IMG/VR virus record: IMGVR_UViG_2695420651_000007
DNA: 23,056 nt
Source: a virus
Lineage: Duplodnaviria; Heunggongvirae; Uroviricota; Caudoviricetes
Strand: one strand, 5' to 3'
Position numbers: made by a program. How positions within the stretch are numbered: the stretch's first letter is position 1; the number at the start of each line of letters is the position of its first letter. Of this stretch, positions 12,001 to 15,000 are shown piece after piece.

Positions 12001-15000
12001 TGCGTTCATGTGGATCCATTTCGCCCTCAGCAACCGGCGGTGGTAACCCCATAAATTCAGTCAGAATATCGGTCAACCGGTATAGCTTGAGTTTGTCATG
12101 TCCACCAGCGGGACGAATGTTTTTCAGTCTTGCCACGACAGTCTGGCGGTGCAGACCAGATAAAGCCGCCAGTTGATTAATATTCAGCACCAGGTTTTTC
12201 AACTCATGATCCATATTTCCTCCGGAGAGCTTTAAACATGCATCGTGCGAACAACTTTAAGAAAACGCGTTCGATGTCGAACAAAAAACACTCAACTCGA
12301 CATACAAAAAACAAATAACCATTAATAATCAATAAGATGCAAAGATGATGGTGGCCGATAAAAATGCAAAAACTAGCCTTTTTCCGCGACGCTCCCGCCC
12401 CGTGGCAGGCCACCCCACCGGGAGGAGCCGTCAGCCTGAAAGCCATGACGAACGTCTGATACAGCCTTTGCATGAATGGCATCGGGATAATCCAGAAAGG
12501 AATAGCATCGACCCACAAGAATCTGTGTGAGTGTCCTGTTTCTTCCACCCCCGCACAGGACTGGCGAGCATGAGGGACAAACCCGCGAATCATTAGCGCG
12601 GTAAAAACCCGGTGTGCATCGTTTTTGATTATTCCCGCACACTCGCGCAGAAGGAGTTCCCCGTCGGGCTACGGTCATGGTTAATGCGGGAATACAGCGA
12701 CGATACAGCGCATGATGTGTCAGGCTTGAATACCTTTATCCGTTAAAAGGGATATCAGTTAAGTTATCCCGTGTAGGGTATAAGCCATTATCAAAGCCAC
12801 TCTGTAGGGAGTGGCTTTTGTAATGGCAATAAAAAAGCCCCGCGAATGCGAGGCTAAATCCAGGTATTTTTAATGACTGGCTCTTATCTCAACGCAGCCC
12901 CTTACCGCGCGCCAGATGCTCAATATCAAGCATCAGCAATGAGATGTTTAACCATGATTCACTCCAGAAGTGAGCACCACCCTGTCTACAGAGCCAGATG
13001 TGAAGGATGATGAGTAAAATTATCGCTATCATCGAAGGCATTGCGTCCTGATGTATTCCTGAAGCGTTCTCAGTGCTGTTTGGTCGCGGATAATTCCGTC
13101 CCGGATACCGAGAACGTTTCGTCCAGCAACTGGAGAGAGTTCGACGGTGGCATCATTGCCCATGCCGGAGGCGCTGGAGGTTTCGTCTGAGGATGGCACA
13201 GGGCATTTTCCTTTGACGAACACCCGACCACCATTATCAAGCTTGCGCCGAAGAGCATCATTTTTAGCTTTCGCATCAGCTAACTCCTTCGTGTATTTAG
13301 CATCGAGTGCATCAGCAGCACGCTGGCGCTGCTGCATGTCAGTAATGGTGGCGGTCGCCTGCTTCAGCTCACTGACTTTTTTATCACGCTGTTCTTTATA
13401 GGCGATGGCGTTATCACGGTAATGATTAACCGCCCATGACAGGCAGACGATGATGCAGATAACCAGAGCGGAGATAATCGCGGTTACTCTGCTCATTGTT
13501 GCCCCCACAAACAGACTTCACGCTCAATCTCGCGGCGAGTCATCAGCCCTTTCCATTGCTTACCGCCAGCGTATGTCCAGCGCCGTAGCTGATCACATGC
13601 GCCTTTGATATCACCCTGGTTTATTTTGCGAAGAAGCGTCGATGTTCTGAAATTACCAGCGCCCACGTTGTAAACGAACGAGTAAAGAGCGCCGCGCGTT
13701 GTTTCCGGTATATCGACTTTGATGTACGGGTTAATTTGTCTGGCGACCGTGGCAAGGTCTTTATTCAGGAGGGCTTTGCATTCTGCTTCGGTATACGTTT
13801 TACCGGGCATGATGTCTTTTCCGGTGTGTCCGTGACATACAGTCCATACGCCAACGATATCTTCGTATGGTATGTAGCTGACACCTTCCAGGCCATCGTC
13901 ACCACTCGGACCAGTGATGAGCACAGACGCTATGGCAACAGCCCCACCACCAATAGCAGCAGCAACAGCCTTGCGTAATGATGGCGACATTATTCACCTC
14001 TCGCAGCCTTACGCTTATCTTCTTTAATCTTGAAATAAAGGTTTGTCAGATACGTCAGCAAGCCAAACACCAAGCTACCCAATACGCCTATTGCCACCCA
14101 CTGGGATGGGGAGACTTTGTCCAGCAACTGCAGTAGCCAGTATCCCGTCCCCACCGCTGACGTGGTGTATGACACACCTGTTGTTATTTTTTCCATCTGG
14201 TACATACCCCGTCTCCCGTTATCCGGAAGCTGACAACAATAAAAAGCCACCAGTTAATTCCTGATGGCCCTGATGCATAAACGTCATAATACCTGACTGT
14301 TATGATTGACAATAATGATAATGTTTATATAGAAAGGTTCCCGATGTGTGTTACATATCATTTCTCCACGGGGAATATCCCCACGCCAGCGCAGACTCTT
14401 TTACCCGTTCTCTTCTGCGCTGGCTCTTTTTTATTATGCTGCTGCATTTACCTCTGGCACCATGCTTTCTATCTCAACACAATACGTGGTACTTCTTGTA
14501 ACCAATATCATAACGATTAATCGACATAGAATTTCTCCCGTGTACAGGAACAGAGTTAAAAAGCCGGAACCGGAATCAAATCACAGGATGACCATCTGCC
14601 AGTGGCAGGTCATAAAAAAAAGGCCGCGCCATGCGCAGCCAGAACTCACAAGGAAAATGATAGAAGGAAATAACATTAGTGATGTACGCATGGCGCCTCC
14701 CGCTAAGTTCTGCAATGATCAAACAGAACTCGCTACGTGCCCTTAAAACTCGATCATTTAGCCCCTCCAAGGAGGATTCACCATGCGGTTGATTTTTTAA
14801 TAAACAGTAAACAAAAAAGTCAAGAATTATTCATTCTGTTCTTTCATCATCGGCCACAGCAATACCACAATGCCGCAGACCAGAGCGCCATCAGTCAGTA
14901 CCAACATTATCCTGCTGGTGAAATCCATCATCACCATCACTAAAAGCAGGATCACAACAGCAAGCAGACACAGTTTATAAAACAATGTTCAGGAAACGCA

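What the first reader, a model, noticed from the sequence alone, without database searches (positions are those of the whole stretch)
12215..12405. cos region with a variant cosN-like core and palindromic candidate terminase-binding sites
About 175-185 bp upstream of terS the minus strand reads ACG-GGGCGGGAGCGT-CGCGG, sharing the flanks and GGGCGG core of the lambda cohesive-end site as recalled but differing at about 4 of 12 positions. The intervening cosB-like region lacks lambda R-site sequence but carries a perfect GTTCGA-TG-TCGAAC palindrome and an additional TCGACAT copy, consistent with a different small-terminase specificity (terS here is not Nu1-like). A changed cohesive-end sequence would matter for packaging specificity.
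Basis: partly seen in the sequence, partly recalled or inferred. Interest (0 to 1): 0.45.

Follow-up and report, generated by a model that had tools for sequence, protein, structure and literature searches.

The report
Lambda-type cos site of a prophage

Summary
The minus strand reads CCACG|GGGCGGGAGCGT|CGCGG (12-mer at 12389-12400), 186 nt upstream of terS. It differs from the true lambda 12-mer at bp 7, 8, 9 and 11.

It is a genuine lambda-type cos, but not new. The records of phages cdtI and Tritos begin with exactly this 12-mer and end in ...CCACG. About 35 prophages from many genera keep the same cosQ-cosN-cosB layout upstream of a DUF1441-type terS. 2,158 of 5,426 complete E. coli genomes carry a match to the region.

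Right-half variation of cosN is documented as common and functionally neutral for cutting (Feiss 2015). It is therefore unlikely to set packaging specificity.

The 6-2-6 palindrome is not significant: 21% of shuffles contain an equal one, and relatives with 87%-identical TerS lack it. It does overlap a family-conserved block. Three such blocks plus an IHF-consensus site sit where lambda has R3-I1-R2(inverted)-R1, and all three change together with the TerS recognition helix.

TerS belongs to Pfam DUF1441, not Nu1, with only weak remote similarity. No end-mapping data were found for this lineage.

The parts
12423..12429 (-). cosQ-like heptamer GGCTCCT (lambda cosQ GGGTCCT, 6/7), 22 nt before the top-strand nick (lambda: 23 nt)
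   Evidence: Most relatives carry a perfect GGGTCCT at the same spacing. The G-to-C variant is shared with O55:H7 and O157:H7 prophages.
12387..12402 (-). cosN: CG|GGGCGGGAGCGT|CG. The 12-mer is 12389-12400. Predicted nicks lie between 12401/12400 on the terS-sense strand and between 12389/12388 on the other strand, giving a 12-nt 5' overhang.
   Evidence: The sequence is identical to the first 12 nt of the cdtI and Tritos records. It is conserved in register in 35 loci. 8 of 16 positions are two-fold symmetric, against 10 of 16 in lambda.
12368..12378 (-). Conserved spacer block GGCTAGTTTTT (bp 23-33), at the position of the lambda segment between cosN and R3 (I2)
   Evidence: Near-invariant CGGCT[AG]GTTTT in all anchored loci. 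The role is inferred from position only.
12344..12355 (-). R3-position block GCCACCATCATC (bp 46-57), candidate primary TerS site
   Evidence: A CATCATCATC-type block lies at bp 40-62 in 32 of 35 loci. Lambda R3 is at bp 50-65 and N15 R3 at bp 48-60 (PMC9026076). The block switches to GTGCAGCAGCA where the TerS recognition helix changes.
12327..12339 (+). IHF-consensus site AATCAATAAGATG (1 mismatch to WATCAANNNNTTR), bp 62-74, I1-like
   Evidence: One search shows it is not significant in the window alone. Across the family, a site starting at bp 62-64 is perfect in 11 of 35 loci and has at most 1 mismatch in 26 of 35, against 0.2% and 6% in shuffles.
12296..12304 (-). R2-like block TATGTCGAG (bp 97-105). 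The G at 12296 is a private substitution.
   Evidence: GATGTCGAA lies at exactly -32 from terS in about 28 loci, which equals bp 98-106. Searches show the alignment. The best E. coli genome matches have A at 12296.
12273..12281 (-).
   Evidence: It aligns with TTCACCATC in the d=129 group and TTCATCACT in the mEp460 group. It is a perfect inverted copy of the family 9-mer. The palindrome itself is not conserved and not significant.
12231..12258 (-). Conserved block AAAGTTGTTCGCACGATGCATGTTTAAA (bp 143-170), present only in the d=186 subgroup; role unknown
   Evidence: Conserved in the window, L013-L016, mEp460 and 4F5. It is absent from the d=129 group, which is 57 bp shorter.
11723..12214 (-). 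terS, 163 aa, Pfam DUF1441 / PHROG 141 'terminase small subunit'; N-terminal HTH with recognition helix HRQTVVARLKN
   Evidence: It is 100% identical to the TerS of phage PhiR40_1. The link to Nu1 is a weak, co-linear hhalign match.
9621..11723 (-). terL, 700 aa, with gpA-type ATPase and endonuclease domains
   Evidence: It is 25% identical to lambda gpA, E=6e-19.

Best explanation
Window ~12231-12429 (minus strand) is the complete lambda-type cos site of a lambdoid E. coli prophage whose terminase is a DUF1441-family TerS plus a gpA-family TerL.

Proposed mechanism, inferred by analogy with lambda:
1. TerS dimers bind three related blocks arranged like lambda R3-I1-R2(inverted)-R1. These are GCCACCATCATC at bp 46-57, inverted TATGTCGAG at bp 97-105 and TTCGACATC at bp 120-128. 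IHF bends the DNA at an I1-like site at bp 62-74.
2. This positions TerL to nick CG|GGGCGGGAGCGT|CG on both strands, 12 bp apart, giving 12-nt 5' cohesive ends.
3. The cosQ-like heptamer 22 nt upstream serves packaging termination.

The four differences from lambda's cohesive end all lie in the tolerant right half (bp 7-12). They affect only which ends can anneal, not which DNA is recognised. Specificity lies in the TerS-block pairing.

Shown here: the sequence anatomy, the positional conservation, the covariation, and the identity to the ends of deposited records. Inferred: protein binding, the nick positions and IHF use.
For: Gene context:
- The order is lysozyme, Rz, intergenic region, DUF1441 terS, gpA-type terL, lambda-family portal.

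Match to lambda and to deposited phage records:
- The real lambda comparison shows identical flanks and left half, with differences at bp 7, 8, 9 and 11.
- The cdtI and Tritos records start at this exact 12-mer and end in ...CCACG.
- The yong2 record breaks at the predicted right nick.
- The mEp460_4F5 virion assembly breaks 5 nt away.
- LLS is annotated with a 12-nt 5' cohesive site at the homologous position, though this was inferred.
- Cyanophage Cr-LKS3, with a homologous TerS, is reported (PMC9303873, details in its supplement) to have 9-nt 5' cohesive ends, GGGCTCGCG; the authors note that the first 4 bp and the 2 nt flanking each side match lambda. Its record starts ~130 nt upstream of terS.

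Conservation across 35 anchored loci:
- They keep CCACG/CCGAG|12 nt|CGCGG, the GGCTAGTTTT block, an R3-position block (32 of 35) and an IHF-consensus site at bp 62-64 (26 of 35 with at most 1 mismatch, against 6% in shuffles).
- GATGTCGAA lies at a fixed -32 from terS in about 28 loci.

Link to TerS:
- All three blocks switch in concert with the TerS recognition helix: CATC/GATG/CATC versus CAGC/GCTG/CAGC. Gifsy-2 has GTCAGCACTGA / TCAGTGTCGAA / TTCGACACTGA.

Literature:
- Right-half cosN variation is common and neutral for cleavage, specificity lies in cosB-TerS, and R3 positions are as given (PMC4669245 and PMC9026076).
Against: - No experimental end-mapping for this phage lineage was found. 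The LLS ends are explicitly inferred. The basis for the cdtI and Tritos record starts could not be read.
- The window's IHF-like site has one mismatch and is at chance level taken alone.
- The inverted-repeat relation between the R2-like and R1-like blocks is not significant in the window (7/9, p~0.55).
- The window's R3-position block matches its own R1-like block only moderately.
- cosQ carries a G-to-C change, and the R2-like block carries a private A-to-G change. This particular copy could therefore be impaired.
- TerS-DNA binding was not and cannot be tested here.
Confidence: 0.8

Rival explanations
1. The palindrome GTTCGA-TG-TCGAAC is itself the specific dyad-symmetric operator for a TerS dimer. 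On this view it defines a new packaging specificity.
For: It is a perfect 6-bp-arm palindrome. It overlaps a conserved block and contains the family 9-mer GATGTCGAA in inverted orientation. The window lineage's TerS helix (HRQTVVARLKN) differs slightly from that of the mEp460 group (HRQTAAARLQN), which lacks the palindrome.
Against: 21% of shuffles give an equal palindrome. The d=129 group shares the window's helix HRQTVVARLKN (for example L034) but has the non-palindromic TTCACCATCATGG at that position. Only the window, L013 and the PhiR40-type phages carry the palindrome.
Confidence: 0.1
2. The palindrome plus the downstream T-run is a weak intrinsic terminator or RNA hairpin. It would modulate late transcription or translation entering terS, and would not be a DNA-binding site.
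For: The terminator scan flags TGTTCGACATCGAACG + CGTTTTCTTA on the terS-sense strand. The CGTTT tract is conserved in relatives.
Against: One terminator-like site was found against 0.9 expected. The stem has 6 pairs (3 G-C) and a 4-nt loop. The stem is destroyed in the mEp460 group while the T-tract persists. In the d=129 group the homologous block overlaps the terS start codon.
Confidence: 0.05
3. The site is a decaying relic in a defective prophage. It is cos-derived sequence but no longer functional for packaging in this strain.
For: cosQ is 6/7. The variant is shared with O55:H7 and O157:H7 prophages, whereas the propagated phage PhiR40_1 has a perfect GGGTCCT. A private substitution hits the conserved R2-like block at 12296. 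In O157:H7 PV15-279 the neighbouring terS is annotated as a truncated pseudogene.
Against: TerS is 100% identical to that of PhiR40_1. terL and portal are full-length with intact domains. The cosN, R3-position and R1-like blocks are identical to PhiR40_1. Other cosQ variants such as AGGTACT occur in the family, including Gifsy-2.
Confidence: 0.15

Closest known systems
Bacteriophage lambda cos (cosQ-cosN-I2-R3-I1-R2-R1)
   Same: - Position between the lysis genes and terS.
- 12-bp cohesive-end core with identical left half GGGCGG and identical flanks ACG| and |CGCGG.
- A cosQ-like heptamer at nearly the same spacing (22 versus 23 nt).
- An R3-position block at bp 46-57 (lambda 50-65).
- An IHF-consensus site just downstream, then an inverted block followed by a direct block.
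- terS ATG at bp 187 (lambda 191).

   Different: - bp 7, 8, 9 and 11 of the cohesive end differ.
- The R-block sequences are unrelated to lambda's.
- TerS is DUF1441, not Nu1.
- TerL is only 25% identical to gpA.
- cosQ matches 6 of 7.
Phages cdtI (AB285204) and Tritos (OV696610)
   Same: Identical 12-mer GGGCGGGAGCGT, identical flanks, and an identical ~30 bp after the nick. Their records are opened exactly at this site. Their TerS is also DUF1441.
   Different: Their TerS is only 42% identical, with a different recognition helix (HRDTVKKRLL). The cosB blocks differ (GGCGGCGGCA-type), implying a different packaging specificity on the same cosN.
mEp213 / LLS / mEp043-type lambdoid phages (putative cos GGGCGGCGCGCT)
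   Same: Same TerS family (62-63% identity) and the same cos architecture, with CATCATCATC, IHF-like, GATGTCGAA and TTCACCATC blocks. Specialists describe them as having a lambda-like 12-nt 5' overhang.
   Different: The right half of the 12-mer differs. Their cosB is 57 bp shorter (terS at bp 130), and their R1-like block overlaps the terS start codon.
Gifsy-2 (Salmonella)
   Same: DUF1441 TerS (48% identity). Same flanks CCACG...CGCGGGAATCGGCT. The three R-like blocks include a perfect inverted pair that by eye extends to 11 bp, TCAGTGTCGAA-N15-TTCGACACTGA, at the same place.
   Different: 14 nt rather than 12 lie between the conserved flanks in the deposited sequence. The core reads GGTGGC..., and the cosQ variant is AGGTACT.

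Membership tests
Lambda-like cos site (12-nt 5' cohesive ends, gpA-type terminase) | Lies immediately upstream of terS-terL, with a gpA-family TerL (ATPase plus endonuclease) | tested here: met
   Pfam GpA_ATPase 1.2e-69 and GpA_nuclease 1.9e-85. terS begins 186 nt downstream of the 12-mer start.
Lambda-like cos site (12-nt 5' cohesive ends, gpA-type terminase) | cosN: a 12-bp core with conserved left half and conserved CG dinucleotides flanking both nick positions, with variation tolerated at bp 7-12 (PMC4669245) | tested here: met
   CG|GGGCGG GAGCGT|CG, with differences only at bp 7, 8, 9 and 11. The register is conserved in 35 loci.
Lambda-like cos site (12-nt 5' cohesive ends, gpA-type terminase) | Partial two-fold rotational symmetry of the 16-bp cosN | tested here: met
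   8 of 16 symmetric positions, against 10 of 16 in lambda. Weaker than lambda but present.
Lambda-like cos site (12-nt 5' cohesive ends, gpA-type terminase) | cosQ heptamer GGGTCCT roughly 20 nt upstream of the nick | tested here: inconclusive
   GGCTCCT (6/7) lies 22 nt upstream. Most relatives have a perfect GGGTCCT. The effect of the G-to-C change is unknown, and the lambda cosQ mutagenesis paper could not be read.
Lambda-like cos site (12-nt 5' cohesive ends, gpA-type terminase) | cosB with repeated TerS sites in R3-I1-R2(inverted)-R1 order and critical cosN-R3 spacing | tested here: met
   Comparative evidence only. Blocks lie at bp 46-57, 97-105 (inverted) and 120-128, with an IHF consensus at bp 62-74. 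Positions are fixed across the family and the blocks covary with the TerS helix.
Lambda-like cos site (12-nt 5' cohesive ends, gpA-type terminase) | Virion DNA actually ends at the predicted staggered nicks | not testable with these tools
   Indirect evidence only: the record starts of cdtI, Tritos and yong2, the 4F5 assembly break, and the inferred LLS annotation.
Nu1-type small terminase (Pfam PF07471) | Significant sequence match to the Phage_Nu1 family | tested here: not met
   The Pfam hit is DUF1441 (4.6e-44), with no Nu1 hit. BLASTP against Nu1 finds nothing. hhalign is weak (probability 29%, E=6e-4) but co-linear through the HTH and wing.
DUF1441 / PHROG 141 small terminase | Full-length match to the family profile, in the terS position upstream of terL | tested here: met
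   PF07278 at 150 bits over residues 10-149; phrog_141 at 2.7e-77.
Rho-independent terminator (for the palindrome) | A stable GC-rich stem-loop followed by a U-tract, conserved among relatives | tested here: not met
   The scan flags a weak stem (6 pairs, 3 G-C, 4-nt loop), 1 found against 0.9 expected. The stem is not conserved in the mEp460 group.

The most novel reading that the evidence does not exclude
The DUF1441-TerS phages may form a large and so far experimentally undissected branch of lambda-type cos systems. One shared cosQ/cosN scaffold would carry at least three or four distinct TerS-helix/R-block specificity classes: the CATC type, the CAGC type, the GGCGGCA type and the Gifsy-2 ACACTGA type. 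In this branch even the supposedly constrained cosN left half and cosQ drift (AGGCGG, GGGAGA, GGGGCG with a CCGAG flank; AGGTACT and GGCTCCT cosQ). If so, packaging specificity and cross-packaging or hijacking potential among E. coli, Salmonella and STEC prophages could be read directly from sequence.
Probability: 0.45. Interest if true: 0.35.

Novelty: new member of a known kind. Interest (0 to 1): 0.2.

Why it matters
The value is mainly in annotation.

- It fixes the genome ends and packaging signal of a very common family of E. coli prophages, including those of O55:H7 and O157:H7. These are usually annotated only as "DUF1441 family protein" with no cos feature.
- It gives concrete, testable TerS-site candidates.
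- It corrects one expectation: the altered cohesive-end bases are unlikely to govern packaging specificity.
- The comparative set shows recognition-helix/R-block covariation and natural variation in cosQ and the cosN left half. That is a modest resource for people studying terminase specificity or satellite hijacking of cos phages.

Tried and rejected
- A literature search for the 12-mer string returned only unrelated G-quadruplex and primer hits.
- Asakura 2007 (cdtI phage), Vahanian/Feiss 2017 (cosN survey) and Wieczorek & Feiss 2001 (cosQ) are not held. I could not confirm whether the cdtI ends were measured, nor how lambda tolerates a G-to-C change at cosQ position 3.
- The best-inverted-repeat test per locus mostly did not beat shuffles. 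I dropped the claim that the R2-like and R1-like blocks form a significant dyad in the window.
- The single-sequence AlphaFold model of TerS had pLDDT 52, too poor for a fold search. I ran no further search on this secondary point.
- I first noted the cosQ variant GGCTCCT as private to the window. That was wrong: O55:H7 RM12579 shares it.
- My first palindrome coordinates (12270-12283) were off by one. The correct coordinates are 12269-12282.
- A search for papers on the PhiR40/47/55 phages found nothing about their DNA ends.
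Full report
**1. What is in the sequence**

On the minus strand the window reads ...GACGGCTCCTCCCGGTGGGGTGGCCTGCCACG GGGCGGGAGCGT CGCGGAAAAAGGCTAGTTTTTG.... The 12-mer occupies 12400..12389 and starts 186 nt upstream of an ATG at 12214.

The gene order on the minus strand is lysozyme (13990..13493), Rz (13508..13029), this intergenic region, a 163-aa DUF1441 protein (12214..11723), a 700-aa gpA-type large terminase (11723..9621) and a lambda-family portal. The DUF1441 protein falls in PHROG 141, "terminase small subunit".

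I fetched the real lambda sequence rather than relying on recall. Lambda reads ...TTTAC GGGTCCT TTCCGGTGATCCGACAGGTTACG|GGGCGGCGACCT|CGCGGGTTTTCGC. The window therefore shares both flanks and bp 1-6, and differs at bp 7, 8, 9 and 11.

It also has a cosQ-like heptamer, GGCTCCT (12429..12423), 22 nt before the nick. Lambda has GGGTCCT at 23 nt. The 16-mer with both CG flanks is the only perfect match in the window.

**2. Is it a real cos?**

Several independent lines say yes.

- *Deposited record ends.*
  - The records of phage cdtI (AB285204) and phage Tritos (OV696610) begin with exactly GGGCGGGAGCGTCGCGGAAAAAGGCTAG and end with ...CTGCCACG.
  - Hafnia phage yong2 breaks at the predicted right nick...GGGGCAGCGACA | CGCGGGAAACGGCTAG.
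  - The virion-derived assembly of mEp460_4F5 breaks 5 nt from the predicted left nick and has lost 3 nt of the 12-mer. That looks like an assembly artefact at a physical end.
  - Phage LLS is annotated with a "5' extended single-strand cohesive site GGGCGGCGCGCT" at the homologous position. Its paper says this was inferred, citing Vahanian/Feiss 2017 and a personal communication from M. Feiss about mEp213.
  - Cyanophage Cr-LKS3 has a homologous TerS. Its paper reports 9-nt 5' cohesive ends, GGGCTCGCG, whose first 4 bp and 2-nt flanks match lambda, with the end analysis in its supplement. Its record starts ~130 nt upstream of terS.
- *Conservation.* I collected 66 terS-homolog loci from a one-genome-per-species collection.
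  - 35 loci carry the same frame: cosQ-like GGGTCCTCC, then CCACG or CCGAG, 12 nt, CGCGG, and a near-invariant CGGCT[AG]GTTTT. They come from Escherichia, Citrobacter, Klebsiella, Kosakonia, Phytobacter, Enterobacter, Yokenella, Atlantibacter, Ewingella, Serratia and others.
  - The frame sits at a fixed distance from terS: 129-130 nt in most and 186 nt in the window's subgroup.
  - In most lineages the left half GGGCGG is constant while bp 7-12 vary freely (GAGCGT, TAGCGG, CGGACT, CGGGGT, CGCGCT, CGAACT and so on).
- *Prevalence.* 2,158 of 5,426 complete E. coli genomes match the region, 296 of them at 99% identity or more. The best matches are O55:H7 and O157:H7 chromosomes.

**3. Does the changed cohesive end matter?**

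Feiss and colleagues report the following for lambda-like phages (PMC4669245):
- Differences at bp 7-12 are common. N15 differs at 9 and 12; Gifsy-1 at 8, 9 and 11.
- Changes there have no measurable effect on cos cleavage.
- Lambda and N15-specificity terminases show no cosN specificity.
- Packaging specificity lies in TerS-cosB.

All four changes in the window are in that tolerant half. It would matter only for annealing between heterologous ends, which in lambda/N15 costs about four-fold in yield.

**4. The palindrome and cosB**

The perfect 6-2-6 palindrome (+ strand 12269-12282) is unremarkable statistically. 21% of dinucleotide shuffles of the 174-nt segment contain one as good.

It is present only in the window, L013 and the PhiR40-type phages. 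Five relatives with 86-87%-identical TerS have GTTCATCACTAACA there. The d=129 group includes TerS proteins with the window's exact recognition helix, and it has TTCACCATCATGG.

A terminator-like call on the palindrome is at chance level (1 found, 0.9 expected), and no sigma-70-like promoter was found. Lambda R sequences are absent (best 9/16, at chance).

What is conserved is a set of blocks at fixed distances from the nick. In the table, bp 1 is window 12400.

| Element | Window sequence | bp | Window coordinates | Family evidence |
|---|---|---|---|---|
| R3-position block | GCCACCATCATC | 46-57 | 12344-12355 | A CATCATCATC-type block in 32 of 35 loci. Lambda R3 is at bp 50-65 and N15 R3 at bp 48-60, and that spacing is critical (PMC9026076). 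|
| I1-like IHF site | AATCAATAAGATG | 62-74 | 12327-12339 | A site starting at bp 62-64 is perfect in 11 of 35 and has at most 1 mismatch in 26 of 35, against 0.2% and 6% in shuffles. The window's copy has one mismatch and is not significant alone. |
| R2-like block (inverted) | TATGTCGAG | 97-105 | 12296-12304 | GATGTCGAA at exactly -32 from terS in about 28 loci, which equals bp 98-106.
| R1-like block | TTCGACATC | 120-128 | 12273-12281 | TTCACCATC or TTCGACATC, roughly the inverted copy of the R2-like block. It lies inside the palindrome. |

The order direct block, IHF site, inverted block, direct block is the lambda R3-I1-R2-R1 order.

The link to TerS comes from covariation:

| TerS recognition helix | R3 position | Middle block | Last block |
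|---|---|---|---|
| HRQTV(V/A)ARLKN | CA(T/C)CATCATC | GATGTCGAA | TTC(A/G)(C/A)CATC |
| NRN(M/L)VARRLRE (L049, L053) | GTGCAGCAGCA | TTTGCTG(C)AAA | CGTGCAG(C/T)G |
| Gifsy-2 (helix not read here) | GTCAGCACTGA | TCAGTGTCGAA | TTCGACACTGA |
| cdtI and L075 (HRDTVKKRLL) | GGCGGC(G/A)GCA type | not assigned | not assigned |

I consider the block assignments probable (about 0.6). Binding itself is untested. The pairwise inverted-repeat relation is not significant in most single loci, including the window (7/9, p~0.55). It scores 8/9 in L013 (p~0.055) and 9/9 in Gifsy-2 (p~0.02; by eye the arms extend to 11 bp).

**5. TerS and TerL**

TerS is not a Nu1-family member by sequence. Pfam assigns DUF1441 rather than Phage_Nu1, and BLASTP against Nu1 finds nothing.

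A 17-sequence profile aligns co-linearly with Nu1 through the HTH (LNINQLAALSGLHRQTV / VNKKQLADIFGASIRTI) and the wing (LKLY / EVLY). The score is weak: hhalign probability 29%, E=6e-4. The best solved-structure hit is the MerR-type winged HTH of MtaN, E=0.011. So it probably works like Nu1 (N-terminal wHTH, dimeric), but membership is not met.

TerL is only 25% identical to lambda gpA, yet the cosN scaffold is retained.

**6. State of this particular copy**

The window's TerS is 100% identical to that of the propagated phage PhiR40_1. Its cosN, R3-position and R1-like blocks are also identical to PhiR40_1.

Two differences stand out:
- cosQ is GGCTCCT, against GGGTCCT in PhiR40_1. The variant is shared with O55:H7 RM12579 and is not private.
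- A G at 12296 replaces the conserved final A of ATGTCGAA. This is the only base separating the window from its best genome matches.

I cannot tell whether these changes impair function. From memory of Wieczorek & Feiss 2001, cosQ point mutations in lambda are deleterious, but I could not read that paper. Other cosQ variants such as AGGTACT also occur in this family, including Gifsy-2.

**7. Verdict**

This is a real, correctly located lambda-type cos site. It belongs to a very common prophage family, and its cohesive-end sequence already opens deposited phage records.

It is partly wrong: the palindrome as such, and the idea that the variant 12-mer determines specificity, are not supported.

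Novelty is low. It is a new, uncharacterised member of a known kind. The modest added value is the family-wide R-block/IHF map and its covariation with TerS.

Noticed in passing
L010 (lambda 48452-48466); L030, L034, L035, L037, L040, L041, L043-L045, L047 and L055, just upstream of cosQ: A Fur-box-like palindrome, (A)ATGATAATCATTATCA(TTT), sits a few nt upstream of the cosQ heptamer in lambda and in many DUF1441-terS loci from different genera. The upstream genes in those loci were not compared. It is absent from the window. I know of no assigned function for it.
   Followed up: no
window 12423-12429: The cosQ-like heptamer is GGCTCCT. The variant is shared with O55:H7 and O157:H7 prophages. 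The propagated phage PhiR40_1, mEp460, cdtI, LLS and most loci have GGGTCCT. A third natural variant, AGGTACT, occurs in Gifsy-2, L035, L037, L038, L049 and L058. This contrasts with the published statement that natural cosQ variation is not apparent.
   Followed up: partly
window 12296: A single base (minus-strand G, where relatives have A) distinguishes the window from its best E. coli genome matches across 271 nt. It falls on the last position of the family-conserved ATGTCGAA block.
   Followed up: partly
L031-L033, L042, L036, L022, L024, L025, L027, L029, L038, L055, L066 (cosN position): In some lineages the supposedly constrained left half of the 12-mer also drifts: AGGCGGCGGGCA, GGGAGACGTGCT, and GGGGCGAGGACA with a CCGAG left flank in place of CCACG. 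The flanking CGCGG...GGCTAGTTTT and the cosB blocks stay in register.
   Followed up: partly
L001/L002 (LR595868.1 mEp460_4F5 record ends): The linear record starts at CCACGGGGCGGGAGCG-CGG, 5 nt upstream of the predicted nick. It lacks 3 nt of the 12-mer relative to mEp460. This is probably an assembly artefact at the physical cohesive ends.
   Followed up: partly
window 12373-12678 (minus) and 12204-12593 (minus): ORFs of 101 and 129 aa run across cosQ and cosN. The 101-aa ORF is annotated as a hypothetical protein in PhiR40_1. It gives only partial PHROG hits: an unknown-function family, plus a 26-residue match to an Rz-like spanin family. These are likely spurious ORF calls across cos, or remnants.
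   Followed up: partly
window 12231-12258; L013-L016, mEp460: The d=186 subgroup carries 57 extra bp between the R1-like block and terS. This stretch contains a conserved AAAGTTGTTCGC...GATGCATGTTTAAA block of unknown role. It could be a further TTGTTCG repeat or a translation or packaging element.
   Followed up: no
L087 (E. coli O157:H7 PV15-279, NZ_AP018488.1 899693-900028): In this O157:H7 genome the terS homolog next to a near-identical cos is annotated as a truncated pseudogene. At least some copies of this prophage are therefore decaying.
   Followed up: no
L084 (Gifsy-2, NC_010393.1 ~17990-18010): In the deposited sequence, 14 nt (GGTGGCTTCGGGCT) rather than 12 separate the conserved CCACG and CGCGG flanks. 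This implies either a different overhang length or different nick placement in Gifsy-2.
   Followed up: no
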